A DNA stretch of 64,000 bases, taken from Cyanidioschyzon merolae (Eukaryota). Location: assembly GCA_000091205.1 (NCBI GenBank), contig AP006498.2, one strand, 5' to 3'. The translations under genes and the position numbers were made by a program. The notes below the pieces were generated by a model. That model was not told the origin of the DNA. It made no database searches and worked only from the letters and a program-made list of their open reading frames with translations. Shown here in pieces: positions 27,521 to 61,818 of this stretch (position 1 is its first letter; each line of letters begins with the position of its first letter).

Positions 27521-28269
27521 GCTCGCCGTCGACGCTCGAGTCTCTCCCGGGAACGGGTCACCACTAGGGATAGATACCGCTCGGCAGCATGCAGCAGTCC
27601 TTGCCTTCTTTGCGCAACCATGACGCTGTATGGTCACCATCGCGCGCCTTTTGCGAGCATAGCTATCTGTTTCAGAAAATTTTTCCCCAGAGAGCAACTT
27701 AGTTTGAAGCTTGATCCTTTTGTGCACAGTGCGTTTCGGCGCCTGCTCGTTCAATTTTCGTACGAAATAAGGCTCACGGAATGCAAATACACTCAGCAGG
27801 TCTTTGCGTCGATGCTCGGACTTGAGCGTCAATCGCCATCGACAAGGCAGCGCGTTTTCGCAAAAGCGCCACGTGCGTATACCTCCTAAAAACGAACAGA
27901 GAAAGCCGTTTCGTGTGGCGGCATTCTTGCTTATCGTAAACTCGGCCCCTAAACTTTGTTTTGCCGGTTGGAAAACGCGCAACCGTTCGCTTGTGGTTGC
28001 TAGCGACCCTGGGTTCGCTGCCCGCTCGCCAGCACCGAGCAGCCCCAGTGACTGGTGCAGCCAAGCTAACTCGCCCATGGTATGTGCACGTTCACCTCAG
28101 CTTCTAGTTTCTTTCGCACACGATGTCTCTGCATGAGGCTGAACCGTCGCCCCTCGTATCCTATGAAACGTACTTTTGAGCGTTTCCGCGCACCCAGCAC
28201 TGCCTTCGCCGCCCTAGCACTATTCAAAAGCGCGCTCTTTGAGCGGCCTTCAAATCGGCAATCCGTAAG

Positions 28270-29269: not shown

Positions 29270-30133
29270 AGATTCGGTGAAACGACATTTGCCAATGGCA
29301 TGATACCTACCACGGAATATGCTTCCAGGCGCTATGGTCTCTTCTGTTCGCGTGAAAATGGGTCTCGGGCGTGGACTTGAGTCATCGCAGCGATCGCTTG
29401 CATGGCAGCATGCATCGAAGCTCTGCACGAATGCAGGGAGCCTAGACGCATCCTTATTACGCTGCTTGATCTTCAGCAAGGATTCCCCTCCGGTGCTCGG
29501 TACATCACGGTCAACTTCGCTTCCCAGAAATCGCTTTGCGAGTAGAAGAGCGAGCGCGTGTAGCGGACAGTATACGCGCCCTACAGGATCGCCCAGAAGA
29601 AACCCGTGATCGTAGCGCGCAGCACCGGGCGCAAACGTTCAGGCGGGCATCGAGGCGAGCCTTCTGTACACGTACAAAGCGTGTACCGAGAGATGCAGCA
29701 AGTGTTCACGCGCAACGTCTTCGTGGCCTTTGGGTCAGGACAGCATGCTGTAGGCATACGGGGAAACGCGTCCAAAGTCAGGTGTCACCCGGTTGCGAAG
29801 GTCGCAGTGAGGCTGAATGTAAGGCGCATGTGAATGACACGCAACGCATAGATGCAACCATCGTCTGCACACGAAACGCGTCGACAACAGTCGGGAACTG
29901 CGACATCGGCGCCCGGAGGCTGCCACCGAAATCACCAGATTCCTACTGAAGGAATCGGGGGCATGCGAGCGACTTGCGTATTCCAAGTCGGAGATGGCGG
30001 AGCGGGGACTAGGACGCAGTCGCAGCATAGGCCCGCCAACGCTGGTGCCAGTGGCATTGCGAGGCACACTAATTTCAGAGCCACCGCCCGCGTTCTATTC
30101 GTGGATCCCTCCCATTTATGTCTGACATTCGTG
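29270..30133. repeat. Right arm of inverted repeat pair B
   Basis: See the left arm. The outer junction is at 30133 (..tctgacattcgtg) versus 24391 (cacgaatgtcaga..). Confidence 0.85.
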
Positions 30134-30775
30134 AAGAGCGCGCCGCGTCGACTACTTTGCCGCGATGCGCGCCGCTTTCGTGGCGACGGTGTCGCGGATA
30201 CTCGCAGGCACACGACCTTCGGTGGATCGTTGCCATCCCAGGCACGTCCGCTGGCAATCGTTCGGCCATGTATGCGACGCATCACGAGTTCCGCCTGGAA
30301 TGTGAAGCGATGAACGCCATCCGATCGCGATCATAGGATCGACATCGATGCCCTGAAATCCACACACAGCATCTCATACGCTTGCCTGACCGTGCTCCCT
30401 TTACCCCAGCGATCTGGTATCCAGAACAGATGCCGTCTCTTCGCCGAGGCACCTTCCATGACGCAGAACCTCTAACCCGCGCCTACGCTCTCTCCCTAGT
30501 TCCATCGGTCCTATTCAAAGCTCGCCGATACCGAATTGATAAATGTCATAGTTTGTGCGCTGCACCAAGAGTGCAGGTCGGGCGAGATGGATTCGCGCTT
30601 CCACCGCGTCGGCTGCTTGCCGTCGTCAGCGCTGGAACGACGCGGCACCTTCGCGCAGCAGGGCGATCTTGTGGCGCTCGTCGCCCGCGCAGGCTGCTGG
30701 GCAGCGTGAGCAGCCAGCGGATACGATCCCGTCGTACACAGCTGCAGCGGTACGAGGTATTCTGGTTGTAATTCG

Positions 30776-37261: not shown

Positions 37262-37740
37262 AAACGTTTCTGGACGATTTCCATCAATGCATTCAGGAGG
37301 ATAAACGGGCATCACAAACATGGATGCTCGCTGCAAATCGTACAAAAGTAGCGTTTGGTATCCTGTACGATTTCCATCAATGCATTCAGGAGGATAAACG
37401 GGCATCACAAACATGGATGCTCGCTGCAAATCGTACAAAAGTAGCGTTTGGTATTCTGTACGATTTCCATCAATGCATTCAGGAGGATAAACGGGCATCA
37501 CAAACATGGATGCTCGCTGCAAATCGTACAAAAGTAGCGTTTGGTATTCTGTACGATTTCCATCAATGCATTCAGGAGGATAAACGGGCATCACAAACAT
37601 GGATGCTCGCTGCAAATCGTACAAAAGTAGCGTTTGGTATTCTGTACGATTTCCATCAATGCATTCAGGAGGATAAACGGGCATCACAAACATGGATGCT
37701 CGCTGCAAATCGTACAAACCTAGCGTTTGGTATCAAGCTG
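37262..37740. repeat. Minisatellite: 93-bp unit x ~5 tandem copies (units start 37276, 37369, 37462, 37555, 37648)
   Basis: The unit is gatttccatcaatgcattcaggaggataaacgggcatcacaaacatggatgctcgctgcaaatcgtacaaaagtagcgtttggta[t/c]tctgtac. Copies 2-4 are perfect and the terminal copy diverges. Both strands are open through the array (ORFs 37246..37788 + and 37208..37717 -), so the reading frame is uninformative. Confidence 0.9.
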
Positions 37741-38298
37741 AATGCACTTTTTAGAGTACCTTGGGCTGGTTGGGTGTCAGATTCCTAAACAGTAGACGAT
37801 GAGACGCGAGCGCAAGCTGCACCAGGATTTCACAGCCTCGATCTACATCCGGAAACGTCTCGTGCTTCCGCAACGTGCATCGACTTTGTGTCCAGCGAAT
37901 ACTTGCGTGCATCCTCTAGGACTCAGTTAAGGTTCTGTGGTGAAACGCTGCACACTTTCCATGAAAAACATCAGTGCACAGAAAAAGGAGCATCGGATTC
38001 GTGCCTGGAACTCTGTCCCGGCCTACGATATGAACAGCCATCACAGCGAAGCTCCAGCACCGTACGTACACACAGGGAACGAATTCACTTGACACTTGGT
38101 GAACGATCATGGTACTCCATCGCTCGATGCGACTGAGCATCGCGAAGATTGATCGTATACCTCCGGAGCAAGTCCGGAGATCGACGACATCGCGACTTGA
38201 CGGCGTCTGGACGCCATCCAGCGCTGAGCACGATCCGCAGGAAGCGATGGCTTCTGAATAAGGCCGCTAGGAACAAGACTCGTTCGCCTCGGTAGCTA

Positions 38299-47590: not shown

Positions 47591-50500
47591 TTATCCTAGA
47601 CCACGATATTTTTCCTGTCGGATATAGTCGCGTTCCCATTGATGTAGATAAGGGAGTACGGGTGATGGTGTAAGCGCGTAAACGTGCCAACGTGCTCGTT
47701 CTTCTACCATAGACCACAGCTCGAGTAATATCGCGTGTAGATTCCGTAGAGCAGTATCGATCCAGGGGCGGTGATCGGTAGCCCGCTCCCTGACGCCTAC
47801 TGAAAACCGCGAAGACTGTTGGTGCTGCTGCTGCTGTTGCTGTTGTTGGCGCAAGTTGATCCACGCTCGCACCAGGAGCGGAACCAAAAACGGAGCCACG
47901 CGTCGGACGAGCCGCGGGTGCTGCTGCACCATCGCATACCAAAGCGTCGCAATACTCGCTTCTCCGGGGTACTGCTCGGTGACCCGCAACGCGAGCGCCA
48001 GAACCGGATGAAAAAGAGCTCCCGCTGGATCCGCTGAGCGATCGACCAAAGCGATCAGGAGCCGCACCAGGGTCTCCACAAGCCGGCAACGGCGTTGCGT
48101 TCCGGTCTGCGTCAACGCTCGAGCACTCGCTATCAGTAGCGCTTTCACCACGCGAAGCAATGCCTGGTGTTGACGACGCCAGTGCGTCCCGAGGCCGTGA
48201 AAGCGCGCACCACGAGCAAGGTGCTCAGGCCTGGGACGTGCAGCTGCTGCTGTGACTGCGGTTCCATATCGCTCTGGACGCTGAAGCGGGCGCCATAATC
48301 GCTCCACCAGACGTAACAGGTACCACAAAGCCGGTGTATCGTATTGAATCGATCCGTCTGGTTGGAGTTCCGGAAGCCTGTACTCCAAGAGTCTCTCGAG
48401 GACTGCCTCCAGCGTTGCGGCGTCCATGCTGGTAAGCCAAATACCCAGTCGCATCTCGATATAGCCGGCAGCGGAGCGTTGGGTGCTGCCGGCTGAGGCC
48501 GCACTCGCCTCCCCGGCGACATCTAGCACCGAGGCAGGTATTCCAGGTGCTGACGGTGCCTCGGCGCTCGACGCCAGTACCAACATACTCAGCAGCAGTG
48601 CCGTACGACCGGGTCCCAGGGAACGTTGAGTCGTTGCTGGTTGCGATTCTGGTGCGCTCAACGCCCTCCATGTGTCCTCGAAACAGTCCCAGATGAAGCG
48701 CAACGCGCGTCGGGGTAACCGTCTCGCCAGCTGCTCTAGCCAGTGCTGGATCCACAACAGACCAGCAAAGGGCTGCGAATCCAACCAGACCGGTGAACAT
48801 GTCGCCAACACAGTGACCAGTGCATTCGCCAGCGATTGTGATGGCATTTCAGTGGGTATCTCCCAGCGCTCAGTAAGCAAACGCCGCCACAGCGCCCAGC
48901 AGCGAGGACGCAACGCGCGGGGAATCTCATCCAGAGGCGTCAGTGGCTGCAACGACGACAGCAGCGGCAGCAGCAACTGGTGCTGCTGCTGCTGCTGCTG
49001 CTGCTGAGGCTCCAGCTCGTGGCCAGCTGCAAAGTTCGTCGTATTCAGCAGCGTGTCGCAACAATGCAGGTAAATCAAGCGCCATGCATCTGGTGGATGC
49101 GTCCAGAGACTGCGCAGGAAGGCGCTGCACAGTTCCTGGTAGAGACCCATGTGCTGATGCGTCCAGTACGGTACCTGTGCGTCTTCGCCAGCCAATTGCT
49201 GTTTCCAGAGAGTGCTCAGATGCTCGGCGAGCGCTGCACTACCTGTCCATCGCAAGGCAAAACGCGGACCGTATGCGAGACCCATACGACATAGCGCGAG
49301 CAACAAACGCGGTGTTCGCGTCCAGGTGTCCGGGGTCCAGGCGCAGCGCTCAAGCAATGCCAGTACCCGGGATGCAGGTAGCAGACGCAACAACGTATCT
49401 AGAAAAGGCTCCAGAAGAAACCGTTGCCGTAACCAGAGTGTTTGGGGCGCTGAGCCGTCGGTCTTGCTGGGCGACGCTTCCGCCGGCCAAACGCACTGCA
49501 GGCACTGAAACAGGGCCGCTTCCGCAGCAGTACGAAGCGCTTCCGTAGTCGTCGGCGACGTGGCCGCCGACGGTATCGTCACCGCCACCGTTGAGGCATT
49601 CGCTTCCATCCATAAATCCGATAAATGCACGATACTCCAGGTGGAAAGCGGATGCAGGTCCGCACTGCAGGGCGCCTGCGCGAACGCGCACAACAGGCGG
49701 CAGAGCAGTAGCTCGACCAAAGCGGCTACCTTGGGGGTATCGCGGGGCAACTGCGGTATTGCTGTCACCAGTCGAAGACAAGGAATGGATCGTAGCGTAT
49801 CGGCGTGCTGGCGGGCGAGGAACGCCAATACACAGCCAGCAGTCGTGGTGTAGTCGCTGTCATCATGCCTGATGCGGAGGTGCGGCGTATCGAGCCCGGT
49901 ATCCGGCGTTTCCAGCACCTGTTCCTCGCTTGGACGAATCCGGAGCTCCCAGATATCCACATCTTCACAGATCCATTCGTTGATTCGGGGTTCATCAAGT
50001 GCCATCTCCAGCACTGCATCGAGCAGAGCGCGTTCCTCGCTGATGCGCACCAGCTGGAGTGCAGCGTGTGCCCACAACATGGTGCGCTCCTGTCGTATCG
50101 GCAAGCGACAGTCGCGCTGTGGCAGCCAAAGCGCACCTAATGACGTCTCCCTGTGATGACTCCGCATTGCGGGTATCTGCAGCTGTCGCAGCCACAGCTC
50201 AAGGACGCTCCGTGTGGCGGTATCCGGCTGCCAGCTGCGCAGCTCCGTTAACAGCTGCATCGAGTCAGTGGAGAGCCCAGGCTGCATCGTTTGTTGCAGC
50301 TGCAACAACGCAAGGCTTACCCGCGCAAGCTCCGGCAGCAGTTGCGGAGCGCTTTCGCGACTCCAGCGCCAGCATGCACGGCAGGCATCGGTGATGAGCG
50401 GATCGCGGATGTCGCCAAGTGTGCTTTCGAGCGCTTCAGCTGCGGCACTGAACTGCGACGCGATCGACTCGATGCTTGTCACGAGCAACGGGAGCAGCGA

Positions 50501-52408
50501 CCACTTGGCTAAAGACGCTCGCTCTGTTCGATTTGTATCGCACCCAGCGGCTTCTGGTGACGAGGATGCAGCAGGCGCTCGAACCGATTGCTCAAGCGCG
50601 GGCTGAAGCATCTGCAATAGCTGCATAAACAGGGACCAGCGTTGCGCTACGGACCAATGCTTGGCGAGGTCCTGCTCCATCCGGAGCTGCAAGCGCGGGC
50701 TCCACCGCACTGCTTGACCTGTTTCAATGCAATGTTTGATGAGCAGCTGGAACAGACGACTGCCGTCTCGATGTCCACCGAGGTCTGTCACGAACGCGAC
50801 GCGAAAGGCGTCCACTGCCGGATCCGTTGCCGCCCTGTCAAAGAAGCAAAACGAAACGACCTGCGGATCTAGCAAGGGCTCAGTCGTGAGACGCGTCAGC
50901 AGCCGAGGCAGCAGTCGACGCTGTGCCGCCAACGGCACCATGCTCCGGAGCAGCGACGATACCGACGCATCATCGCTATCCAGTCGAGTGAAGAGGCGGA
51001 ACTGCCACGCGTCTGTGAGCACGCTGCTCCAGAGGCATCGCCATAGTTCATCAGGAAGCGACGGTAACGATGCCAAATGATGTAGGAATGTTGTCAGATA
51101 AGCGACGCCGTTGCGAGGTCGCTGGCTCTCACCAGCAACAGAATCCAGGTTTCGCGGCAGCGTGGACGCTATTCCCTGCGACGCAGCGGCTGCAGCGGAA
51201 CGAGAGCGCTTCCGTGCCGCTCCCGGGACCCGCTCTCGGGTGACCGGAGCGCTGTCGCTGACCTCCGGCGACGACGCCTGACTCAAGCACTCGGCACCCA
51301 GTCGGAAGCACTGAATCAGGCTGGCTACCGACATCAGCGTCTGGGTTGTGGTCGCGACCCGAGACCCTAGTCGCAGTGACTCATTCGCGCTACTGCCCGG
51401 ATCGAGGATAAGCGCCGGATGCTCGCCCAGCTGCTTGAGCGTATCGATTATCCAGGTTGCGTACGCAGCGCCAATGGTAGCATGTTTCCGACCGCCGCTC
51501 GCTTTCGACAGGTCATCGATGCTGCGATGGAGGAGCAATTTCAGGGGCACACCCCAGGCCGCCTCTCGTAACGATATGAGCGAGAGGCACCCCAAAAGAC
51601 CCGGTACGCTTTGGAACAAGGTCTCCAGCTGCTTCAGCGTCGCGTTCCGGAACTCGGCTCGTGCCTGGAGTCTTTCGAGGATCCGTGTGCGCACCTGTAT
51701 GAGCAGTTGGTCGAGTTGGCGGCAGCGCTCGAGCACTGGCTGCTGTTCCGCAAGCATGCAAACGCGGACCACTGCGCCGACCAGTCGTAGCAGGGCCTCG
51801 GTTGCCGGTTGGAACGCAGGTCGCTCCAGCAAAGCAACCAACACAGCGAGAACGCTTCTTAGTAGTGGCATGTGCACGAGTTCTGGGCGTCGCTTGTGCT
51901 CTGGTGCCGGTGGCGCTGATGCCAGCGCTTTCTGCTCTTGTTCAGCAGTCGCGCGGAATGACTGCTCTTCCATAGCCAGTTCATCGTCGAGCGTACGTAA
52001 CCAATACGAGGGATCTGTGCAGACGGCCGCGCTCCAGTCCACTACACAGCGACTGAGGGCAAAGACCACCACATCGACGAGCGCGCTCGAGAGCGGTAGC
52101 GGTTCGGTCGCTGCCAGACGCGTCAGCAACTGTTCAAGTTGCCTGATAAGCGCTTCCAGTTGCCGTGTAAGCTCCGCGTTTGCCGGGTTCTCTGGGTTCT
52201 CGCCAGCCGCCTCTAACTCCTGCACCGTGCCCAGTAACATGTGCGTCGTGATCTGGAGTGCCTCCCGTTCCGCTGCAGGCACAAACCAGGCGATCCCTTG
52301 ATTCGGTGTACGGTCTGCCAGTGCTGCAATGCATGCCAGCCGGTTCTCGAACGGCGTCGACTTTCGACGAGCCAGTGTGTGTACCTGGACAAAACAAGGC
52401 GGTGGCAT
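47591..52408 (-). CDS. Very large (1605-aa) Leu/Ala-rich, predicted all-alpha helical-repeat protein of unknown function
   Basis: Uninterrupted 4.8-kb ORF convergent with OPLAH. The composition is helical-repeat-like, in the manner of HEAT/ARM scaffold proteins. It contains poly-Q tracts from (CTG)n at 48981..49008 and (GCT/GTT)n at 47823..47850. No catalytic motif is recognised. The plus-strand ORFs inside it (for example 51348..52301) are antisense noise. Confidence 0.55.
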   Translation of the reverse strand: MPPPCFVQVHTLARRKSTPFENRLACIAALADRTPNQGIAWFVPAAEREALQITTHMLLGTVQELEAAGENPENPANAELTRQLEALIRQLEQLLTRLAATEPLPLSSALVDVVVFALSRCVVDWSAAVCTDPSYWLRTLDDELAMEEQSFRATAEQEQKALASAPPAPEHKRRPELVHMPLLRSVLAVLVALLERPAFQPATEALLRLVGAVVRVCMLAEQQPVLERCRQLDQLLIQVRTRILERLQARAEFRNATLKQLETLFQSVPGLLGCLSLISLREAAWGVPLKLLLHRSIDDLSKASGGRKHATIGAAYATWIIDTLKQLGEHPALILDPGSSANESLRLGSRVATTTQTLMSVASLIQCFRLGAECLSQASSPEVSDSAPVTRERVPGAARKRSRSAAAAASQGIASTLPRNLDSVAGESQRPRNGVAYLTTFLHHLASLPSLPDELWRCLWSSVLTDAWQFRLFTRLDSDDASVSSLLRSMVPLAAQRRLLPRLLTRLTTEPLLDPQVVSFCFFDRAATDPAVDAFRVAFVTDLGGHRDGSRLFQLLIKHCIETGQAVRWSPRLQLRMEQDLAKHWSVAQRWSLFMQLLQMLQPALEQSVRAPAASSSPEAAGCDTNRTERASLAKWSLLPLLVTSIESIASQFSAAAEALESTLGDIRDPLITDACRACWRWSRESAPQLLPELARVSLALLQLQQTMQPGLSTDSMQLLTELRSWQPDTATRSVLELWLRQLQIPAMRSHHRETSLGALWLPQRDCRLPIRQERTMLWAHAALQLVRISEERALLDAVLEMALDEPRINEWICEDVDIWELRIRPSEEQVLETPDTGLDTPHLRIRHDDSDYTTTAGCVLAFLARQHADTLRSIPCLRLVTAIPQLPRDTPKVAALVELLLCRLLCAFAQAPCSADLHPLSTWSIVHLSDLWMEANASTVAVTIPSAATSPTTTEALRTAAEAALFQCLQCVWPAEASPSKTDGSAPQTLWLRQRFLLEPFLDTLLRLLPASRVLALLERCAWTPDTWTRTPRLLLALCRMGLAYGPRFALRWTGSAALAEHLSTLWKQQLAGEDAQVPYWTHQHMGLYQELCSAFLRSLWTHPPDAWRLIYLHCCDTLLNTTNFAAGHELEPQQQQQQQQHQLLLPLLSSLQPLTPLDEIPRALRPRCWALWRRLLTERWEIPTEMPSQSLANALVTVLATCSPVWLDSQPFAGLLWIQHWLEQLARRLPRRALRFIWDCFEDTWRALSAPESQPATTQRSLGPGRTALLLSMLVLASSAEAPSAPGIPASVLDVAGEASAASAGSTQRSAAGYIEMRLGIWLTSMDAATLEAVLERLLEYRLPELQPDGSIQYDTPALWYLLRLVERLWRPLQRPERYGTAVTAAAARPRPEHLARGARFHGLGTHWRRQHQALLRVVKALLIASARALTQTGTQRRCRLVETLVRLLIALVDRSADPAGALFHPVLALALRVTEQYPGEASIATLWYAMVQQHPRLVRRVAPFLVPLLVRAWINLRQQQQQQQQHQQSSRFSVGVRERATDHRPWIDTALRNLHAILLELWSMVEERARWHVYALTPSPVLPYLHQWERDYIRQEKYRGLG

Positions 52409-52650
52409 GGAGGCTGGCTAGCGGCCGCACGCCTTTTCGGCTGCTGCCAGCAAACGAAACGTCTTTGAGGTTGCTGGAGCAGTACGACCAGATACTCGAC
52501 AATACCCGGAAGTACAGATCGGATCGAAATAAGCGTTCTGACAACGAGTGCCAAACGCGTGCTGTATACGATAAGCACAGGCGGCTGTGGCGGCGGCACG
52601 CCTGCCGATCTGGTGGCATTTTCGCAGGCAGGCATTCGCATCTGTCCACT

Positions 52651-53077
52651 TGGGTGACAGGCGCATGGAAGCCTGCAGTGCTCGTTAGGTTTCTGGATTT
52701 CGATTCTTTCCGAACTTTAGAAATGTACAGTATCAAAAAGCAGGAATGCGAGCTTACGGATCCGCGAGTCATTCAAGAATTTGCGCTCGTCTGCTCCAAG
52801 TGACTCCTGCGACACCCTGCCGCCCGAATGTGTGACGTCACTGGGAATCCAGATGACTCGCGACACCTACCAGCGAGGACTGATTCCTAAAATTAAAGAC
52901 ATGTTGAGCCACGATGGATACGTACGGGTTCCTGCTGCTCGTTCTTACGAAGAAAATGCCAATGGCAAGCGAGCCTCACGCGACAAATCCGTCTGGTGCA
53001 GGCCGTGGGTCAGCGATCGCCGCCAACGTCGGATTCGGGTCTTGAACGCTGCCAGCAACATCCACCAACTGCTGACA
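52651..53077 (+). repeat. Direct repeat copy 1 (427 bp), about 98% identical to 57281..57707; termini 5'-TG...CA-3'
   Basis: Base-by-base comparison shows about 6 mismatches over 427 bp. Identical peptides appear in ORFs 52258..52803/52781..53089 and 57143..57433/57411..57992. It contains the palindromic octamer TGACGTCA at 52833..52840. It lies about 240 bp 5' of the 1605-aa gene start. Confidence 0.9.
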
Positions 53078-54184
53078 GTAGCGCTTTAGGGGAAAGACAA
53101 CTGGAGCAGGCACACATCAACATCCCGCAAAAACAGGTATTGATGATATTGCAATGCGTCCCGAACGTTTCATGTGTACACCGCCGAGCCAGCAAAAAGC
53201 GTACCTGTTCCATGCCGCGCGGACACGGGCGGAGGAAACGACATCGATCTGGGCAGCGTGCATGCAGGGGGCAACATCAGCGACATTACTATAACTTATG
53301 GGATGTTAAGGACAGCGATACAGCACGCATCATGCACGTTCATCCGTGTCACGCGTGCATCCGCCGCTTCATGTCCATGCATGTCGTTTATCGACATGCG
53401 TCCACACTGGTCTATTCGATTCGGAAAACATTGCTGCAACATATCCGTAAGGGAGAAGAGACAGGCAAGTCGTTTCGTTGACGCCATAATCGCCGCAGTC
53501 TTCGTACGCTCTCGCCTTGTGATTCGTGAGGGCGCCCGGCGACGCACCGGCGGGCGTCATTACGAGTACCAAAGGAAACAGGTCACGACTCGGGCCTCGT
53601 TCGATGACGCGCAATACCCGTCGGTGGAGCGATAAATCTGGAACATACGAGCTGCGTCGTGTGAAAATCGACAACTGGTAATCGTCATTGGTTGCATGGA
53701 GCACTGGAGCGAGCGTCTCCATGGAACCGATCTAACCTCGAGCAGTCGTGTTCTGCGGCTTGCGTACGCAATCGACTGGGCAGTGCGAGCGGCATTAGAA
53801 ACGCGAATCAGCTGGAGCGTAGTCTTGCATGAGCATTCGCTCCGGAGGTGCGCATTCCTGAATCGGAATCGTGGAGCCTGGCGTCGAACACATATGCACC
53901 ATTTGCATGCGTCTTTGACCTTGCGGGAAACAGGTCACCGTACGCTGACAACGCGAAAATATGGTGCTCGTCCTCCAAAAAATTCCCTCGTCTTGGTCGA
54001 GTACCAAAACGCAGTACAGCCTCCTTCCGTCGAGCCCGCTTCCGGGTCAAACTGGTCTGAGCCCATGTATGCGCGGTCGGCGGTGGCGAGTCTCTCGAAC
54101 GGCGCAAGTACGGGTACAGCGCCGGGCGTCGCTGGCTACACAGTGCGCAGCATCTGAGCGTTCATCTCCGATATAACGCCATCA

Positions 54185-57100
54185 TCAAGCGTCAGTGTTC
54201 TCTAGGGCGCTGACTTTGGCACGCGCCATATCGATGACAGGGTGCGGGAATCCAGCCATTTCAGCAATATGGATACCAAAGGATCTTTCGCTCGGTCCCG
54301 GGCGTAGTTCATAGAGAAAGACAAGGCTGGCAGCGGGAGTGCCTCTGCCGCGGTCATTGATTTCGCTGTCGTCGTTGTCGCGATGCACCTGAGCGACGGC
54401 GACATGGGCGTTCAGCATCCGATGGCTCCAGGCTCCTTGGGCAAGCTTGGTAAGCTCATGAAAGTGGGTCGCGAAGAGCGTCCATGAAGCGCGCGACGCC
54501 AGCGCTTCACACAAGGCGGCAGCGAGGCCGAAGCCCTCAGCTGTGCTCGTTCCGCGTCCAAGCTCGTCGACCAGAACCAGACTGGACGATGTGGCGTGCC
54601 GAAGAATGGTCGACATGTCGAGCATCTCGGCCATGAAGGTACTGATGCCGCGGGTTTGCATATCGCCAGCACCGACACGCACCAAGATCCGGTCAACTAC
54701 GGGTAACGAGGCAGCGTCGGCGGCCACGAAACAACCGCAGTGAGCCATGAGCACGGCGAGTCCGACCGAGCGCAGCGTTACCGATTTGCCGCCCATATTG
54801 GGGCCGGTAATCAGGAGCAGACGCCTCGGATGGGTGAGCACCACATCATTGGCGACAAAAGTGTGCTCGCCTTGGAGCGCGAGTTCCACCAGGGGATGGC
54901 GGAGGCCTCGCAAAATGACGCCGCTGCTTTCGTGCGCTTCGAATTCGTCCGATTCAACTAGTCGCGGGCGACAGAACTGACGCTCCGCTGATATCATCGC
55001 AAATGCGACGAGCATGTCCAGAAGCGCAAGGACGTGGCCGAGAACCTCGAGCATGGACGCATATTTGGCAAAGTGTCCAAACACTTGCGCCAATGTGGAG
55101 CGCTGCACCGCCACATAGCGTTGCTCCGCGGCGGTGTACGCGCTACTCCAGCGCCGAAGAGCGCTCGTTGTGAACCGAACACCGTCCTTGCGCGTTTCAA
55201 GGACGGTAATGGATTCTTTGCCGCGAATGCAAACTTCATCCTTGCGCGTCACCCGAAAGCAGAATCCGAGTCCGTCTTTGCGCTCTAGTTTGAGCCAGTC
55301 ACCGCCAGATCCACGCACGCCGTCATCTTGCTGGAGCGCTGCTATCGTCTGCTGATACGTCCGATTCATTTCTTCAAGACAAGTGTCCATTTCCCCACGG
55401 ATCTGGGTCATCTCAGTGCTCATGCTCGGTCGCAGCAAGTACTCGTGGTTTGTAATGCGCTCCAAATCGATGAAACGCTCCACATCTTCGATAAATTCCT
55501 GAGCTGCTGGTGCAACTGCCGCCAATCGATCAGCAATATCGCTCCGAAGCACTTGACAACACCGGGGACGGGTCTCTGTGTGCGCCAGCAACAGATCTTC
55601 CAGTTCCGAGCGCAAGGCCGGCAGTCTCACCAGGCTCTGATAGAGGCGCACCAGTTGTCGCAGCGATGTTTTGTCTCGCGCAAGTCGCCGCGCTATGGTG
55701 ATGAGATCCGCGAATCCTTTCAGATGATAATCAGCGAGTCGCTGTCGCGCGATAACATCATGGACCAGGAGCTCCACCAGATCGAGCCGTCGTTCGATGG
55801 CTTCGCGGTTACCCAGCGGTTCAATCAGGGCAGTTCGCAGCAGTCGCGAGCCCATCGGTGTTCGACACCGGTCAAGCAGGCACCAGAGGGAGCCCGGTGG
55901 AGGACTCGACGGCGATGCCGGACCGGTTTCATCGCCCCAAAGCACATGGAGTGCCTTCAAGGCAGCAGCGTCGAGCTGGAGATTCTGTCTCCAAGCGAGC
56001 TGCTCAATGCGGTAGCGACCCCGTTCACCAACGCGCTGACCCAAATCAAGAAACCTGACGCACATGTGCGCGCAATCTGTTGCTAGTTTCATCGAGAACA
56101 TCTCATCAAGCGTTAGTGCCTCGGGTCGCCAAGCGTCATCGTCACGTTGGCATGAGTCGGGAGTTTCGGATTCAGCAACAAGCCACCGAAGGTCGTGCTC
56201 GGCGCCTAGGCCTCCACGGCGCACTGGGCGGAGCATGGCGCGAGCGATGCCGCCAATCCGTTCGAGGGCAGCGTCCAACTGGTGAAGTTCATATTCGGCA
56301 AGATCGCCGTCTTGGAGGACAAGCTCTCGTGCTCCGCTCCGCACCAGAGCCCGCTCTATCCAGTCAGTTAGCAGAAAGGCTTCACCAGAGGCGTCCTCCT
56401 GGCACTCGATCACCCGAAAAAGCCCCGCATGCGGAATGCAGTGGCAAGCGGCGACCATACGGCAGTGGCGGTGCCCAGTGTTGCTCTGTTCACCTGTGGC
56501 TCTCGTACGTACAGCGAGCACGCCGGCCGTTTCACCAACAAGCGCGATGCCTTCGGCATCTACGACACTGTCGCCATCAGCGAGTCCGGAGCTGTCCTGG
56601 GCTCGCGTGTTTCCCGGTAGATAGCTTGTGAGCGGACCTACTCTAGCCGGACTGCCAGCCGCTGCGAGAAACCACTTATTCGCAATTTGTAGCGGAAATC
56701 CGAAACCGCGTGCTTCACTTGTACTCGCGCTTCCCAACCGGCTCCCTGCGGCGTAAACTGCGACGGCCTTGCCAGCCTCCAGTCCGGCCAGAACCCAGGT
56801 TGCTAGTGTCGCATTCGTGCTAGCTCGCACCCGAGCCAGGTACCATTCCAGCACCCGCTGCTGCGCTTGACACGTCACCGAAACTCGAACGCTCTCAGTT
56901 TGCAGCTGCGTAGAAAGCAGCCCGGCATCGCCGCTCAGCAACCAGAAACCAGCGGATGTCGACGCGAACTGGAGCACAAGCAGCACCGTGGAAGGATCGT
57001 ACGCAACCGCGGCATCCGCCTCCAGTTGTGACTCGAACCACTCTCGTCCAAATTTATCCACCCCAGAAACACCTCCAAAGACCTGAACGAGGGCATCAGA

Positions 57101-57250
57101 GCCGTGCGCTCCCTGTACGTGAACCATCGCTGCTAGAAGCAGGTGCACTTGTGCGAAGCTCGCGGACTCGGTTGGCGCCAAATGAAAATCCTGCGTGCTG
57201 CTGCGCAGCGTCTTAGATATATTGGTACAAACTCGACCACAGCCCCGCAT
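54185..57250 (-). CDS. MSH2: DNA mismatch repair protein MSH2 (MutS homologue 2)
   Basis: Collinear with MSH2 through the connector, lever and clamp regions (LLDRCRTPMGSRLLRTALIEPLGNREAIERRLDLVE...; ERITNHEYLLRPSMSTEMTQIRGEMD...FCFRVTRKDE...VRFTTSAL). Walker A motif: ITGPNMGGKS. The block STFMAEMLDMSTILRHATSSSLVLVDELGRGTSTAEGFGLAAAL...FATHFHELT is present. The MSH2-specific C-terminus is SFGIHIAEMAGFPHPVIDMARAKVSALE. The N-terminus may be over-extended, with an alternative Met at ~57127. Confidence 0.92.
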   Translation of the reverse strand: MRGCGRVCTNISKTLRSSTQDFHLAPTESASFAQVHLLLAAMVHVQGAHGSDALVQVFGGVSGVDKFGREWFESQLEADAAVAYDPSTVLLVLQFASTSAGFWLLSGDAGLLSTQLQTESVRVSVTCQAQQRVLEWYLARVRASTNATLATWVLAGLEAGKAVAVYAAGSRLGSASTSEARGFGFPLQIANKWFLAAAGSPARVGPLTSYLPGNTRAQDSSGLADGDSVVDAEGIALVGETAGVLAVRTRATGEQSNTGHRHCRMVAACHCIPHAGLFRVIECQEDASGEAFLLTDWIERALVRSGARELVLQDGDLAEYELHQLDAALERIGGIARAMLRPVRRGGLGAEHDLRWLVAESETPDSCQRDDDAWRPEALTLDEMFSMKLATDCAHMCVRFLDLGQRVGERGRYRIEQLAWRQNLQLDAAALKALHVLWGDETGPASPSSPPPGSLWCLLDRCRTPMGSRLLRTALIEPLGNREAIERRLDLVELLVHDVIARQRLADYHLKGFADLITIARRLARDKTSLRQLVRLYQSLVRLPALRSELEDLLLAHTETRPRCCQVLRSDIADRLAAVAPAAQEFIEDVERFIDLERITNHEYLLRPSMSTEMTQIRGEMDTCLEEMNRTYQQTIAALQQDDGVRGSGGDWLKLERKDGLGFCFRVTRKDEVCIRGKESITVLETRKDGVRFTTSALRRWSSAYTAAEQRYVAVQRSTLAQVFGHFAKYASMLEVLGHVLALLDMLVAFAMISAERQFCRPRLVESDEFEAHESSGVILRGLRHPLVELALQGEHTFVANDVVLTHPRRLLLITGPNMGGKSVTLRSVGLAVLMAHCGCFVAADAASLPVVDRILVRVGAGDMQTRGISTFMAEMLDMSTILRHATSSSLVLVDELGRGTSTAEGFGLAAALCEALASRASWTLFATHFHELTKLAQGAWSHRMLNAHVAVAQVHRDNDDSEINDRGRGTPAASLVFLYELRPGPSERSFGIHIAEMAGFPHPVIDMARAKVSALENTDA

Positions 57251-57280
57251 GCGGCAACAGCGCTGCAGCGAATCCCCTTT

Positions 57281-57707
57281 TGGGTGACAGGCGCATGGAA
57301 GACTGCAGTGCTCGTTAGGTTTCTGGATTTCTATTCTTTCCGAACTTTAGAAATGTACAGTATCGAAAAGCAGGAATGCGAGCTTACGGATCCGCGAGTC
57401 ATTCAAGAATTTGCGCTCGTCTGCTCCAAGTGACTCCTGCGACACCCTGCCGCCCGAATGTGTGACGTCACTGGGAATCCAGATGACTCGCGACACCTAC
57501 CAGCGAGGACTGATTCCTAAAATTAAAGACATGTTGAGCCACGATGGATACGTACGGGTTCCTGCTGCTCGTTCTTACGAAGAAAATGCCAATGGCAAGC
57601 GAGCCTCACGCGACAAATCCGTCTGGTGGAGGCCGTGGGTCAGCGATCGCCGCCAACGTCGAATTCGGGTCTTGAACGCTGCCAGCAACATCCACCAACT
57701 GCTGACA
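57281..57707 (+). repeat. Direct repeat copy 2 (427 bp), same orientation as 52651..53077, beginning about 30 bp 5' of the MSH2 ORF start
   Basis: See copy 1. The TGACGTCA octamer is at 57463..57470. Confidence 0.9.
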
Positions 57708-58407
57708 ACGGAAATGGAAGGACAGTCGAGACCAGCGTATTTAAAGCCAGAGATGGGAGACAGGCTAAGGAAATCGTCGCAGAAAAATTCCACAGTGACA
57801 GGGGCCGTTTACAAAAGGAAGAGTCCCAAAATATACCGCTTGCACCCGATCCAGCGGCTTGACTCCGTTCGGTTGGAAGCTGGCACCGGCGTAAGATCGT
57901 CGGTAACGCGTAGAGTCCCAGACATACGGGTACGACCTACGCAATGGATCCGCGTACGGAACGAACGCTTTCTTAGAGTGCAGAATCCTTGACATCAGGC
58001 TCGGATTTCCGGTCGTGCGCTGGTCTTCCACGTCCGAGGAGGTTTCTATCACGCAGCACCGCACCTGCGAATTCCCGTAGCCACGACCCATTCTTCCGTA
58101 TGGGGATAATGGTTCGTTCATACGATCCGACAGATACCAAGCGTGCATTGTGCATCTTCTGTAACGCCTAAAATGCTGCTGCGTACACTGCACGGAAAAA
58201 GGACGCGTTCGTCACACTCCTGAACGCTCGTCGAGTCGAGACAGCGTTGCTGAGCCCGCACCCGCAGACGCGATCTTGGTGATCTATTGCCATTGGCCCA
58301 CAGTGCTGCATTGGCATTGCGAGAAACGCTGAGAACTACCCCTGCTGGAAGGACGCGCACGTTTCGAGTTAGTATGCCAGATTAGGAGTCCCGGGGGTAG
58401 AGGCTCG

Positions 58408-59469
58408 ATGCAGCTGTGGCTCGCTGACGCTGTCGCTCGCGCAGTCGTGCACGCTCGTGCAAAGGGTGCCATTTTCGGCATTGAAACGACTTCCACTGTA
58501 GTGCTCGATCACGGAATTCCATTTCTTGTGCGCATCGTGTCGAGCTTACGTGACAAACCGGTTAACGAACAAGGAGAAAGCGCTGCTAGTTCTGAAGAAC
58601 CCCCGGGACCTGTAGATGCGGCGGACGGAGCGTTAGGGCTGGCCGAGCGTGCAGCCACTTCGCACGTGGAGCTAGGCGTGTTTCCGGACCCGTTCCTGCC
58701 CTATGAAGAAGACCTGTACGTGGGCGATGTGCCACCTGCGCACGTCTGCCTGTTAAACAAGTTTAACGTTGTAGAAGGGCACCTACTCGTCGTGACCCGT
58801 GCCTTCCGGGAACAAACGCACCTGCTGGACAGCGGTGACTGCACGGCAATCTGGCACTGTCTGCGCCAGTATCCGGGCCTAGGTTTCTACAACTCCGGTA
58901 AAGTGGCCGGCGCTTCTCAGCGTCACAAGCACTTACAGCTCATACCCGTAGCTGGTGTGGAGGCTGTGCCTATTCACGAGAAAGTGGAAGAAGCGGCACG
59001 TTCCCGCGAGGAGCAGACCGGATGTTTTGTGGTACCCGCGCTGCCCTTCAAACATGCGATCATTGGCATGCACGATCTCTACTCAGAGTCTAAATCGGAT
59101 GCGGAAATCGGGGCAGCCATGCATTCCCGTTACATGCAGCTGCTGCACTTCACAATCGAGGAACTCGGTGTACCCGCTTCATCATGGATGGCGTGGGAGG
59201 CTCGGTCGCATCACCCGCCAGCGTCTGCAGTAGGCCATCCGGCAAACGACAGTGAAACGGCGCATCCGTTCCCGTATAACCTTCTCTTGACCAGCAACTG
59301 GATGATGTTGGTGCCTCGACGTCACGAAAAGTTTCTAGGAGATATAAGCGTGAATGCGTTGGGGTTTGCGGGGTTTCTTCTAGCGAAAAATGAGTCACAG
59401 AGGGATCTCATTGTGAAGCACGGCCCCTTGAAGGTCCTGGCGCAAGTGGGGATTCCCTGGAACCACTGA
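58408..59469 (+). CDS. ATP adenylyltransferase / Ap4A phosphorylase (Apa1/Apa2-like, GalT branch of the HIT superfamily)
   Basis: CLLNKFNVVEGHLLVVTRAFREQTHLLDSGDCTAIWHCL...GFYNSGKVAGASQRHKHLQLIPV matches the Apa1/2 pattern (H.LLNKFPV...H.L..T..F..Q...L ... NCG..AG.SQ.HKHLQ). It includes the HxHxQ nucleotidyl-transfer motif. Confidence 0.65.
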   Translation: MQLWLADAVARAVVHARAKGAIFGIETTSTVVLDHGIPFLVRIVSSLRDKPVNEQGESAASSEEPPGPVDAADGALGLAERAATSHVELGVFPDPFLPYEEDLYVGDVPPAHVCLLNKFNVVEGHLLVVTRAFREQTHLLDSGDCTAIWHCLRQYPGLGFYNSGKVAGASQRHKHLQLIPVAGVEAVPIHEKVEEAARSREEQTGCFVVPALPFKHAIIGMHDLYSESKSDAEIGAAMHSRYMQLLHFTIEELGVPASSWMAWEARSHHPPASAVGHPANDSETAHPFPYNLLLTSNWMMLVPRRHEKFLGDISVNALGFAGFLLAKNESQRDLIVKHGPLKVLAQVGIPWNH

Positions 59470-61101
59470 GGATCGGACAGGGCCGTCTTCGTGCGAATTG
59501 GATGTTTTTGCATTATGCTATATGGAGCAGTTGTTTCCAGCAGCGGTAGATGGATACTGTCCTTAAGTGAGGACTGTGTGAAGGGTTTTGCACCCATCAT
59601 AGTTTCCTAACGCTAGATGCAGTTGAGCGTAATCGCACGGAAACGGTTGCGAACGCAGCAGAACGAGTCCTATGTAGTTTACAATAAAACGCCTGGGATA
59701 TCGCATCTCGACAACGACGGCAGGTGCGCCATACAACAGACATTGCTCGCTATCGTCATTGGACCTCGATACACGCAGTCATATCGAATAAAAGAACATC
59801 ATTTTTGTTCAGCAAATTCCCAGGAAAATCGTTCTTGGTGGGTAGATACGGTGCGCAGACCTGGCTCGGTTGCTGATCTGCAGCGTACCAGAGCCTTGTG
59901 TCAGGCGAGAATCCGATGCCGTCATTTCTGGCTACCGTTTTTGTCTCATCGCAAGCCGTCAGCGTTTTACTCCAATGGCCACAATGAGTTCTCAGCCATT
60001 CCACTGGTAGTTCGCTCGACACAAAGCCGCTGGATGCTCTGGCAAAGCAATCGATGCTCCCGGATTTTGATCGAGGCTTTCAGGTCTTTGTGCATCAAGT
60101 GTTTTTGCGCATGATTGCTGGTGGAATCGTACCGCGGCAAGCCCTGTATCTGCAAATGCCTCGCTGAGGCATGTTCGGTCAGCTTTGCGCACACTCTCCA
60201 GCGCTTCCGGCTCTATTGCATGCGCTTCTTGTCTGCGCATTTCAGGGTGCAGGCGTGCTCGAGATGTACATATTGTTTTCCAAACGCATCGATGGGCATC
60301 GTCCAAAATCGATGCCAGTACTCGGTTTACGCCGTCGTCGAAGGAGCCGGAGCGAAGCCTATGCGCGCTACAGCATGTCCGGTGCGATACGCGATCACCA
60401 GATAACGCGACTTGTCGACGGTTCCCGTTTCCAGCTCAGAGAACAAGTTGTTGAATGCCCGCTTCTCGTCTTTGACCTATTGAAAGTATTGGCGAAAGCG
60501 GCGCGGCTTCATATATTCCTGCCAAATATCGTCTGCAGGAGCCGTTCGGACCCCGATGCACGCTCTTTATGAAGCGTCCAAATCGTTTCGCCACTCAATA
60601 CGGAGCTCTGAGCGTCGCGATGGCTCCCAACATGGTCATTCCGTGCCATGGTATCGCAGCTGGCGTCCGGCAAGCACGACTCGTGGAAATCACGAGTCGT
60701 TTAGAAGCTGAGCAGCATGATCTGATTTCCGTCTAGGTCTCCAGTGACGTCCTCTTGATGGAGAGGTACGGCAACGGCCGTGATTTCCTTGAACCCCCAG
60801 TCGACGCTCGGTAGAAACGCATTCCCGCCATTTCTATGGAAGGCTTGAAAAAGATTCTCGTTTCTCGACGTACGCCTAGGTTTCATCCTGTGCATGCAGA
60901 TTGACAGACAATCTGTTTCTGTCGTGCCTGCTTACATCTTCCCACTTGCTCCCTGCAAACGTGAAACCTTGAACGAGCTCCGCCAACATTCTTCGTAAAT
61001 TTCACCGAATTTTTCGTTGTTGATCGAAGCGATCAGTTACTTTACCTCCTCGTCTACCTGGCGACGCTGCATGGTTGTGACCTTTGTTGTGTATATCCCG
61101 T

Positions 61102-61818
61102 TTATCTTTTGGATTTAGACACACTTGATCGACGATAACACTGAAACGTGTCACTTCTATCTATGTACACACTAATCCTCTGGTAACATGTCGTCAGCGT
61201 TTCCGTCGCGGGCACGTCAACCGACCGGGGCTCGCCTTTGCAGCCCTCACGAGCAGGGGCACAACAGCGACAGAGCAGTTCGGAATTGCTGAAGTTAAAG
61301 AGCGACTTGTGGAAGAACTGCGGTCTCACGTATGCGAGCGACTCGTCTATTCATCCGTGAGCATGTAAATTGGCTTTTGACTACACACAAGATGCTTTCG
61401 ACTGGATTCAACCTCGGAGAATAGGCTGGCACGAAGAGCAGCTCAACGCCAATCCCAGCAACGTGCTGTTTGACAGATTTTTCGTGAACGAAAGCGAGTT
61501 TATCCAAGACATCGATAGAAGAATGTGAAACGTCGGAGTCAAGAAGAGTCATTGGACACCGGATGCGCTGTTGAACGATCCGGTGTGCTTAGCGATTTGC
61601 AGGCGACCAAAATGCAGCATCGCTGCTTCGACGGACGTTCTCGTCATTTTCGCGTGTCTACGGTTTACGGACAGCGTTTTGTCCGACTTTGAGTACCCAC
61701 ACGCAGACCGACCATTTCCTCCGAATGACTTGTCATTCAGTGAGATTTGCACCAGTTTCTCCTGTAAAAACCTTTCGCGATTCACTGCGGAATCGATACT
61801 TGTATTGTATTCAATCAC
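61102..61818 (-). pseudogene. Decayed Tc1/mariner-superfamily DDE transposase remnant (frameshifted; catalytic DLNPIE degraded to RLNPVE)
   Basis: Three consecutive minus-strand ORFs in different frames (61549..61818, 61295..61552, 61102..61329). The middle one reads LDKLAFVHEKSVKQHVAGIGVELLFVPAYSPRLNPVESI, which parallels Tc1 ...[38 protein letters not shown]. The upstream ORF has ...SLNDKSFGGNGR... (compare FSDESKFNLFGSDGR) and ...MLHFG (compare MVWGC). The local sequence is AT-richer than the surrounding window. Confidence 0.5.

What the first reader, a model, noticed from the sequence alone, without database searches (positions are those of the whole stretch)
52651..57707. 427-bp direct repeats with TG...CA termini bracket MSH2 and each sit just 5' of a minus-strand gene
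The copies at 52651..53077 and 57281..57707 are in the same orientation and about 98% identical. They begin with TG and end with CA, the canonical LTR termini. The 4.2 kb between them contains no gag or pol and holds only the host MSH2 gene (54185..57250, minus strand). Copy 2 starts 30 bp upstream of the MSH2 ORF start. Copy 1 lies about 240 bp upstream of the start of the 1605-aa gene (47591..52408, minus strand). So both copies occupy promoter-proximal positions of minus-strand genes, and both carry the palindromic octamer TGACGTCA (CRE-like). Possible explanations are a solo-LTR pair from one retroelement family, a duplicated promoter module, or a segmental duplication that could mediate deletion of MSH2 by unequal recombination. 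Loss of MSH2 by direct-repeat recombination would create a mutator state, which makes this arrangement worth attention.
Basis: partly seen in the sequence, partly recalled or inferred. Interest (0 to 1): 0.7.

Follow-up and report, generated by a model that had tools for sequence, protein, structure and literature searches.

The report
Direct repeats flanking algal MSH2 gene
Two nearly identical 428-bp stretches of non-coding DNA bracket the mismatch-repair gene MSH2 in the red alga Cyanidioschyzon merolae; they are a plain two-copy local duplication, not retrotransposon ends, but they appear to exchange sequence and could in principle recombine to delete MSH2.

Summary
A 428-bp direct repeat lies at 52650-53077 and 57280-57707, with 5 mismatches and no gaps. 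It brackets MSH2 in C. merolae 10D, on the 908,485-bp chromosome that carries CYME_CMP113C. At least 11 independent metagenome assemblies show the same arrangement, or break inside the repeat, so it is not an assembly artefact.

The solo-LTR reading fails. There are no target-site duplications and no terminal inverted repeat beyond TG/CA. No third copy turned up in the window, in a metagenome scan or in the protein-ORF search. The published genome reports no LTR retrotransposons. The TGACGTCA octamer occurs at chance frequency. The unit is non-coding, has no RNA-family match and evolves as fast as other intergenic DNA.

The best reading is a lineage-specific local duplication of intergenic DNA, partly homogenised by gene conversion. 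Lineage-specific bases are shared by both copies within a strain.

Two metagenome contigs join the outer flanks through a single hybrid repeat and lack MSH2. That is what a pop-out would produce, and also what an assembler skipping a loop would produce. I cannot tell which.

Interest is modest, but the question is cheap to test in a genetically tractable, recombination-proficient haploid alga.

The parts
52650..53077 (+). Repeat copy 1 (R1), 428 bp. It lies in the spacer between the MSH2 stop and the CMP113C start, 242 bp upstream of the CMP113C ATG.
57280..57707 (+). Repeat copy 2 (R2), 428 bp. It lies in the divergent intergenic region between MSH2 and the Ap4A phosphorylase gene, 153 bp upstream of the annotated MSH2 ATG (30 bp from the longest-ORF ATG) and 700 bp upstream of the Ap4A phosphorylase ATG.
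52736..52998 (.). Longest block of perfect identity between the copies in 10D: 263 bp, matching 57366-57628. It is the likely recombination core.
53078..57279 (.). Unique 4,202-bp segment between the copies. Together with one repeat it forms the 4,630-bp unit that a crossover between R1 and R2 would excise.
54185..57127 (-). MSH2 (BAM81757.1, 980 aa as annotated; the ORF is open up to ATG 57250).
47591..52408 (-). CYME_CMP113C, a 1605-aa hypothetical protein found here only in C. merolae and its two relatives, with no detectable domain. It is the gene downstream of R1.
58408..59469 (+). Ap4A phosphorylase II-like gene (BAM81758.1), transcribed divergently from MSH2.
57483..57992 (+). Unannotated 169-aa ORF that starts inside R2. 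The R1 equivalent (52853-53089) is cut to 78 aa. It is not a gene: it is truncated to 86 aa in three strains, has no homologues and has no domain.
52833..52840 (.). TGACGTCA octamer (second copy at 57463-57470), at chance-level frequency.

Best explanation
R1 and R2 are a two-copy, non-mobile, lineage-specific local duplication of 428 bp of non-coding intergenic DNA in Cyanidioschyzon merolae. One copy lies on each side of MSH2. The duplication arose after C. merolae split from Cyanidiococcus and from a second related lineage, and before the sampled C. merolae strains diverged. Possible origins are a tandem duplication of the 4.6-kb unit followed by loss of the redundant MSH2 copy, or templated repair synthesis; this step is inferred. 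The copies have not drifted apart freely because they recombine with each other. Ectopic gene conversion homogenises the centre, while the ends keep copy-specific bases. Being direct repeats with a 263-bp perfect core in a haploid, recombination-proficient alga, they are also a substrate for crossover or single-strand annealing. Either would excise the 4,630-bp unit and leave an MSH2-null chromosome with one hybrid repeat. That the structure allows this is shown. That it happens in nature at a measurable rate is not shown. No dedicated function (promoter module, RNA, protein) is indicated.
For: The repeat is real, sharply bounded and limited to two copies. The species and genes are identified. 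Four independent spanning contigs and seven MSH2 contigs of repeat-to-repeat length confirm the arrangement in wild populations. The orthologous loci in Cyanidiococcus yangmingshanensis (L007) and a second lineage (L005/L006) keep the same order: Ap4A phosphorylase, MSH2, the 1519-aa gene, oxoprolinase. They have no flanking repeat, and their MSH2-to-next-gene spacer is about 911 bp against 1,777 bp here. No third context for the unit was found. A 25-mer scan of metagenome contigs hit only this locus. A search of 5.8 billion protein clusters with the repeat-encoded ORF returned only the copy-1-type (78 aa) and copy-2-type (169 aa) products. Concerted evolution: copies within a strain differ at 0-7 sites, while orthologous copies between strains differ at 4-15 sites. 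Offset 310 is C in both 10D copies and G in both copies of all four other strains. Offsets 147 and 279 are private to both copies of L022 and L023 respectively. Offsets 23 and 383, near the ends, stay copy-specific in both 10D and L022. The unit is non-coding and apparently unconstrained. It diverges 0.9-2.6% between strains, against 0.1-0.55% for CDS and 0.4-1.9% for intergenic DNA. It has no Pfam, Rfam or tRNA hit and no fold signal. Direct-repeat pop-out by homologous recombination is an established laboratory tool in this species (URA marker recycling, review PMC8504449). Contigs L011/L012 and L018 show exactly the predicted single-hybrid-repeat junction.
Against: Identity of the two copies within metagenome contigs (0 differences in L013 and L014) can be an artefact of a collapsed repeat node. 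Only the 10D copies come from a finished clone-based genome, so the gene-conversion argument rests on few sites. The complete 10D genome could not be searched directly. The metagenome collection scanned misses short contigs: L002, from the same sample as L011, was not returned. Diverged extra copies therefore cannot be fully excluded. Which copy is ancestral, and how the duplication arose, cannot be determined, because no intergenic similarity survives in the available relatives. The MSH2-less contigs are ambiguous. Sample 3300005573 also holds a 4,710-bp MSH2 'loop' contig (4,630 + 80 bp overlap). Together the two are just an alternative decomposition of the same assembly graph.
Confidence: 0.75

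Rival explanations
1. Solo-LTR pair, or the two LTRs of a retroelement family.
For: The literal TG...CA ends and the direct orientation.
Against: There is no target-site duplication of 3-8 bp around either copy or the pair, and no terminal inverted repeat beyond 2 nt. No third copy was found. The interior is a syntenic host gene. Nozaki et al. 2007 report that all 26 retroelements of C. merolae are non-LTR and that no LTR retrotransposon was found. The left boundary is ambiguous by one base (TTG).
Confidence: 0.02
2. Functional duplicated promoter or regulatory module. R carries the MSH2 core promoter and its copy now drives or co-regulates CMP113C. This is compatible with the duplication origin.
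For: Both copies lie 5' of minus-strand genes in the same orientation, 153-242 bp from the start codons.
Against: Any insertion into the tandem MSH2-CMP113C spacer is automatically 'upstream of CMP113C', and direct orientation is expected from a tandem-duplication origin. The positional argument is therefore weak. TGACGTCA is at chance frequency and absent from the orthologous upstream regions. No E2F, TATA or MSA-like motifs were found. R evolves at least as fast as the surrounding intergenic DNA. The relatives express the same gene pair without the repeat.
Confidence: 0.15
3. Evolved mutator switch. The repeats are maintained because reversible or recurrent excision of MSH2 generates adaptive hypermutator sub-lineages.
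For: Two contigs from different samples carry the precise deletion junction. There are signs that the copies recombine. Pop-out between direct repeats works in this species.
Against: The deletion contigs can be explained by assembler loop-skipping; an MSH2 loop contig exists in the same sample. There is no recombinase or other dedicated machinery. The repeats show no sequence constraint. The relatives lack them. Deletion in a haploid would be irreversible unless the circle re-integrates or the lineage outcrosses.
Confidence: 0.05
4. Assembly duplication in the reference sequence.
For: None beyond the high identity.
Against: The 10D genome is a finished telomere-to-telomere sequence. Four independent contigs from different metagenomes span both copies with unique flanks, and in two of them (L022, L023) the copies differ from each other.
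Confidence: 0.01
5. Duplicated 5' exon or a small protein-coding gene (the 169-aa ORF that starts in R2).
For: An ATG-initiated ORF of 169 aa begins at offset 204 of R2, and prokaryotic gene callers call it.
Against: It is not annotated in 10D: the BAM accessions of the three flanking genes are consecutive and the ORF is not in the protein collection. It is truncated to 86 aa in L013, L014 and L018. It has no domain. It shows no similarity to the ORFs at the same position in the relatives. Its only homologues anywhere are its own two copies. It diverges at the intergenic rate.
Confidence: 0.02

Closest known systems
Low-copy direct repeats as substrates of non-allelic homologous recombination, e.g. 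Alu-mediated genomic deletions of human MSH2/EPCAM in Lynch syndrome (PMC3591251, PMC3770653)
   Same: Direct repeats of a few hundred bp in or around MSH2, whose recombination deletes MSH2 sequence and leaves one hybrid repeat at the junction.
   Different: Here the repeat is a unique two-copy unit, not a dispersed mobile family. It brackets the whole gene in a haploid unicellular alga. No deletion has been demonstrated.
Engineered URA5.3 marker-recycling cassettes in C. merolae (Takemura et al. 2018, as described in review PMC8504449)
   Same: The same organism and the same geometry: a gene sandwiched between directly repeated sequence, removed by homologous recombination between the repeats.
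   Different: That system is artificial, its repeats are identical, and pop-outs are recovered only under 5-FOA selection. The natural repeats are 1.2% diverged and nothing selects for loss of MSH2.
Solo LTRs of LTR retrotransposons
   Same: Size of a few hundred bp, direct orientation, TG...CA end dinucleotides.
   Different: No TSD, no terminal inverted repeat, no dispersed copies, no gag/pol anywhere nearby, and the species is reported to lack LTR elements.
Bacterial mismatch-repair gene switches, e.g. the mobile element in mutS of Vibrio splendidus (PMC5296598) and, from my own knowledge, the SpyCIM1 island in mutL of Streptococcus pyogenes
   Same: A DNA rearrangement at an MMR gene that can generate mutator sub-populations.
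   Different: Those are mobile elements with their own recombinases that interrupt and restore the gene reversibly. Here there is no recombinase, the gene itself would be lost, and nothing shows that the switch operates.

Membership tests
LTR / solo-LTR | 4-6 bp target-site duplication flanking each solo LTR, or the element as a whole | tested here: not met
   At least 3 mismatches for every k from 3 to 8, at both possible left boundaries, for each copy and for the pair. The only exception is a trivial 3-mer with 1 mismatch.
LTR / solo-LTR | Short terminal inverted repeats ending in TG...CA | tested here: not met
   Only the TG/CA dinucleotides match. Bases 3-12 do not pair, and the true left boundary is TTG.
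LTR / solo-LTR | Membership of a dispersed family with full-length gag-pol elements in the genome | tested here: not met
   Two copies only in the window. The 25-mer metagenome scan hit only this locus. The ORF-based protein search found only the two known contexts. The literature reports no LTR retrotransposons in C. merolae. A direct BLAST of the whole genome was not possible with these tools.
LTR / solo-LTR | PBS next to the 5' LTR and a polypurine tract next to the 3' LTR when the pair is read as one element | tested here: not met
   The sequence after R1 is GTAGCGCTTTAGGGG and the sequence before R2 is ...GCAGCGAATCCCCTT. Neither is a tRNA-complementary TGG... site or a purine run.
Low-copy repeat / NAHR substrate | Two or more copies in direct orientation with high identity and an uninterrupted identical block of a few hundred bp | tested here: met
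   428 bp, 98.8% identical, 263-bp perfect core, 4,630 bp start to start.
Low-copy repeat / NAHR substrate | Evidence of sequence exchange (gene conversion) between the copies | tested here: met
   Lineage-specific bases are shared by both copies (offsets 147, 279, 310). Copies within a strain are more alike than orthologous copies between strains. Caveat: the metagenome contigs may carry collapsed repeats.
Low-copy repeat / NAHR substrate | Recombinant products: a deletion allele with one hybrid repeat | tested here: inconclusive
   L011/L012 (JGI 3300005573) and L018 (JGI 3300050379) have exactly this junction. It is indistinguishable from assembler loop-skipping, and an MSH2 loop contig (L002) exists in the same sample.
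Promoter / cis-regulatory module | Transcription start site inside or just downstream of the unit | not testable with these tools
   No transcript or TSS data were available.
Promoter / cis-regulatory module | Enriched or conserved transcription-factor motifs, or purifying selection | tested here: not met
   TGACGTCA occurs at chance level (0.93 expected, one independent occurrence) and is absent from L005 and L007. No E2F, TATA or MSA-like motifs were found. Divergence is at or above the intergenic level.
MITE / DNA transposon | Terminal inverted repeats plus TSD | tested here: not met
   No inverted repeats were found in 50000-60000.
Structured non-coding RNA gene | Rfam match or a thermodynamic or covariation signal | tested here: not met
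   No Rfam hit at E<=1, no tRNA, fold z-scores of -1.5 and +1.5.

The most novel reading that the evidence does not exclude
The two MSH2-less contigs are real. In natural hot-spring populations of C. merolae, crossover between R1 and R2 recurrently excises MSH2, producing MSH2-null hypermutator sub-lineages in a haploid eukaryote. These lineages could be rescued by circle re-integration or by the recently described sexual cycle. The repeat would then act as a built-in, recombination-driven mutator polymorphism.
Probability: 0.12. Interest if true: 0.75.

Novelty: new member of a known kind. Interest (0 to 1): 0.35.

Why it matters
If the repeats only mark an old local duplication, the finding is a small annotation note on a famously repeat-poor model genome, plus a clean example of concerted evolution between two short non-coding repeats 4.6 kb apart. 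It would matter more if the pop-out is real. MSH2 loss gives a mutator phenotype, and MSH2 itself normally suppresses recombination between slightly diverged repeats (my own knowledge from yeast). The locus would then be a self-limiting, natural source of hypermutators in a haploid eukaryote. C. merolae is genetically tractable, so this can be tested with one PCR. There is also a practical point. Laboratory strains of 10D could silently lose MSH2, and short-read assemblies of this species routinely break or mis-join here.

Tried and rejected
1. LTR or transposon reading. The TSD and TIR search was negative. No third copy appeared in the window by blastn with word size 7, in metagenome contigs by 25-mer, or among 5.8 billion protein clusters by the repeat-encoded ORF. 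The literature says the species has no LTR elements.

2. Non-coding RNA. Rfam at E<=1, ARAGORN, and folding of both strands against shuffles were all negative.

3. Coding sequence. There is no Pfam or NCBIfam hit. The small ORFs are not in the annotated proteome, are not conserved in the relatives, and are truncated in some strains.

4. CRE-like octamer as a signal. It occurs at chance level and is not conserved.

5. Decayed homology beyond the repeat ends, which would indicate an older, larger duplication. None was found.

6. Repeats at the orthologous loci of the relatives. None flank MSH2.

7. Function of CMP113C, to judge a shared-promoter idea. There is no Pfam hit even at E<=5, no NCBIfam hit, and no meaningful PDB hit.

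8. I tried to find out whether sample 3300050379, the source of the second MSH2-less contig, also holds an MSH2 contig.

9. The exact-protein look-up for the 10D chromosome itself failed because the record is not indexed. The whole genome could therefore not be searched.
Full report
**What is there.** The window holds a direct repeat of 428 bp at 52650-53077 (R1) and 57280-57707 (R2), 4,630 bp start to start.
- The copies differ at five positions (52672, 52702, 52735, 52999, 53032) and have no gaps. Identity is 98.8%, and the longest perfect block is 263 bp.
- Homology ends abruptly on both sides. Local alignments of 60-400 bp of the flanks score no better than shuffled sequence.
- A sensitive blastn of the unit against the whole window finds only these two copies.

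**Where we are.** The gene between the repeats is MSH2.
- The 1021-aa ORF has MutS domains III, IV and V. Its best solved relative is human MSH2 at 358 bits, against 175 for MSH3.
- Residues 42-1021 of the ORF (980 aa) are 100% identical to the whole of BAM81757.1, 'mutS family DNA mismatch repair protein MSH2' of Cyanidioschyzon merolae 10D, on a 908,485-bp chromosome.
- The 1605-aa ORF is CYME_CMP113C (BAM81756.1, hypothetical). The 353-aa ORF at 58408-59469 is an Ap4A phosphorylase II-like protein (BAM81758.1).
- The three accessions are consecutive. None of the small ORFs in the two intergenic regions is in the protein collection. Both repeat copies therefore lie in DNA annotated as intergenic.
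- The annotated MSH2 start is ATG 57127. The 152 bp between it and the upstream ATG at 57250 diverge between strains at 0.7-3.3%, like intergenic DNA and unlike the CDS at 0.2-0.4%. R2 is thus about 153 bp, not 30 bp, from the probable start codon.

**Not an artefact.** The 10D genome is a finished telomere-to-telomere sequence (PMC1955436). Environmental relatives about 99.3% identical to the window occur in many metagenome assemblies.
- Four contigs from different samples span both copies with unique flanks: L013 (the same contig as L009), L014 (same as L008), L022 (same as L010), and L023.
- Seven more assemblies give MSH2 contigs of 4.2-4.7 kb. The four I aligned to the window (L001-L004) start and stop inside the repeats, as expected for a real 428-bp repeat in short-read data. 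The other three (L032-L034) were not aligned, but their lengths fit.
- Most contigs that carry the Ap4A phosphorylase gene also end inside or just right of R2.

**Not an LTR.**
- No target-site duplication of 3-8 bp flanks either copy or the pair. The termini share nothing beyond TG/CA.
- The sequences adjoining the inner sides of the copies are neither a primer-binding site nor a polypurine tract.
- The interior is a host gene in a conserved neighbourhood. In Cyanidiococcus yangmingshanensis (L007, MSH2 60% identical) and in a second lineage (L005/L006, 59%), the order is the same: Ap4A phosphorylase, MSH2, a 1519-aa homologue of CMP113C, oxoprolinase. There is no repeat around MSH2 in either.
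- Nozaki et al. 2007 state that all 26 retroelements of C. merolae are non-LTR and that no LTR retrotransposon was found.
- I could not BLAST the whole genome, so I used two indirect searches for a third copy.
  - A 25-mer from the invariant centre, scanned against JGI metagenome contigs, hit only two contigs, both at this locus.
  - The repeat-encoded ORF, searched against 5.8 billion protein clusters that include gene calls on many C. merolae-containing assemblies, returned only two clusters. These are the 169-aa product that reads out of R2 and the 78-aa product that reads out of R1.
- Both searches have limited power for short or diverged copies, but they agree.

**Not a gene, an RNA or a recognisable regulatory element.**
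- The 169-aa ORF that starts in R2 has no domain and no similarity to the ORFs at the same position in the relatives. It is cut to 86 aa in three strains.
- Rfam at E<=1 and a tRNA search find nothing. Neither strand folds better than shuffles, with z-scores of -1.5 and +1.5.
- TGACGTCA occurs in the window only in the two copies. With 0.93 occurrences expected, one independent occurrence is what chance gives. It is absent from the relatives' loci, and no E2F, TATA or MSA-like motifs are present.
- Between strains the unit diverges by 0.9-2.6%. That is at or above the neighbouring intergenic DNA (0.4-1.9%) and far above coding sequence (0.1-0.55%). Nothing suggests constraint.

**The copies talk to each other.** I compared 10D with the four spanning contigs.
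- Copies within a strain differ at 0-7 sites. Orthologous copies in different strains differ at 4-15 sites.
- Three sites carry a lineage-specific base in both copies. Offset 310 is C/C in 10D and G/G in all four others. Offset 147 is T/T only in L022. Offset 279 is C/C only in L023.
- Offsets 23 and 383, near the two ends, keep the same copy-specific bases in 10D and L022.
- This is the pattern of gene conversion acting on the centre of an old duplication.
- Caveat: metagenome assemblers can traverse one collapsed repeat node twice. That probably explains the zero differences in L013 and L014. The argument therefore rests mainly on 10D (finished), L022 and L023.

**The MSH2-less junction.** Two contigs join the CMP113C flank directly to the Ap4A phosphorylase flank through a single 428-bp repeat, with exact boundaries. 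They are Ga0078972_1004368 (38,991 bp, sample 3300005573; L011/L012) and Ga0506617_00082 (14,408 bp, sample 3300050379; L018).
- In the first sample the single repeat is a hybrid. Its left part differs from the R2-left sequence on that sample's MSH2 contig, and its right part differs from the R1-right sequence.
- A crossover between R1 and R2 would give exactly this. So would an assembler that walks flank, repeat, flank and emits the loop separately.
- That same sample does contain the loop as a 4,710-bp contig, which is 4,630 bp plus an 80-bp overlap.
- Short reads cannot separate the two readings. I put the chance of a real deletion allele at roughly one in five to one in eight.
- I could not find out whether sample 3300050379 also holds an MSH2 contig.

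**Mechanism.**
- Shown: a two-copy, sharply bounded, non-coding duplication that is specific to the C. merolae lineage and older than the sampled strain diversity.
- Well supported: ectopic gene conversion between the copies.
- Inferred: the origin. One route is tandem duplication of the 4.6-kb unit followed by deletion of the redundant MSH2 copy, which would explain both sharp boundaries and the direct orientation. The other is templated repair synthesis. The extra 865 bp in the MSH2-CMP113C spacer relative to both outgroups hints that R1 is the derived copy.
- Inferred from established knowledge: direct repeats of this size recombine in organisms that rely on homologous recombination. C. merolae integrates DNA by homologous recombination, and its URA marker is routinely removed by recombination between directly repeated terminators (PMC8504449). 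From yeast work (my own knowledge), mismatch repair itself suppresses recombination between slightly diverged repeats. MSH2 would then partly protect its own locus.

**Comparison with known things.** The arrangement works like any low-copy repeat pair that predisposes to non-allelic homologous recombination. The closest named example is Alu-mediated deletion of human MSH2/EPCAM. The closest in the same organism is the engineered marker-recycling cassette. It resembles bacterial MMR-gene switches only in its possible outcome, not in its machinery. It is not a member of the LTR family, because three defining features were tested and not met.

**Verdict.** This is a new member of a known kind: a local direct repeat that is a substrate for non-allelic recombination. 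Interest is modest (0.35). It would rise substantially if the cheap junction PCR or read-mapping test showed genuine MSH2 pop-out alleles.

Noticed in passing
window 6962-8290 and 9991-11316: A pair of inverted repeats of about 1.3 kb, 99% complementary, flanks an O-methyltransferase gene (8576-9607, +). It lies next to a MutY-like gene (11710-13191, -; HhH-GPD + NUDIX_4). The arms hold ORFs of 232 and 188 aa with no Pfam match.
   Followed up: partly
window 24379-25250 and 29274-30145; also 28267-28881: A second inverted-repeat pair (872 bp, 99%) flanks a 735-aa ORF with no domain (25871-28078, -), with a 315-bp tandem duplication nearby. A 61-bp stretch (24818-24878 / 29646-29706) is 75% similar to 7319-7379 in the first pair. 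The four arms may therefore belong to one family, possibly the 253-copy 3.2-kb interspersed element of Nozaki et al. 2007. High-identity local repeats bracketing single genes occur three times in this 64-kb window.
   Followed up: partly
window 37175-37825 and 18535-18634: A tandem array of 93-bp units (about 7 copies, the inner ones 98-99% identical). One 100-bp stretch is 74% similar to 18535-18634.
   Followed up: no
L031:1-386 joined to window 57754 onward: A Logan contig (SRR29605740) carries the 3' end of a thioredoxin gene (WCGPC motif, stop codon). It is joined to the Ap4A phosphorylase upstream region 47 bp to the right of the R2 boundary, instead of to R2 and MSH2. It is either a structural variant with a breakpoint next to the repeat or a chimeric contig. 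Contig L027, from a neighbouring run, starts at 57743.
   Followed up: partly
window about 61295-61552, and beyond the window end (L012:12888-13145 and 17525-18016): Fragments of DDE_3 (PF13358) transposase ORFs lie downstream of the Ap4A phosphorylase gene and on both sides of the BOP1 gene. They are presumably among the eight 'bacterial-like' transposons reported for this genome.
   Followed up: no
window 54185-57250 (-), N-terminal about 380-450 residues of MSH2: Pfam detects only MutS domains III-V. Domains I and II are not recognised, and the alignment to human MSH2 starts at residue 381 (human 258). The same is true of the relatives' MSH2. The N-terminal mismatch-binding and connector region appears highly diverged in C. 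merolae and both relatives.
   Followed up: no
window 57128-57250: An older protein record (UPI00024A9DA2, 1021 aa) and some metagenome gene calls start MSH2 at ATG 57250, while the current annotation starts at 57127. Strain divergence in the 41-codon extension is intergenic-like, which favours 57127.
   Followed up: yes
window 47591-52408 (-): CMP113C (1605 aa) is conserved next to MSH2 in all three lineages compared. It has no Pfam, NCBIfam or PDB relative even at permissive thresholds.
   Followed up: partly
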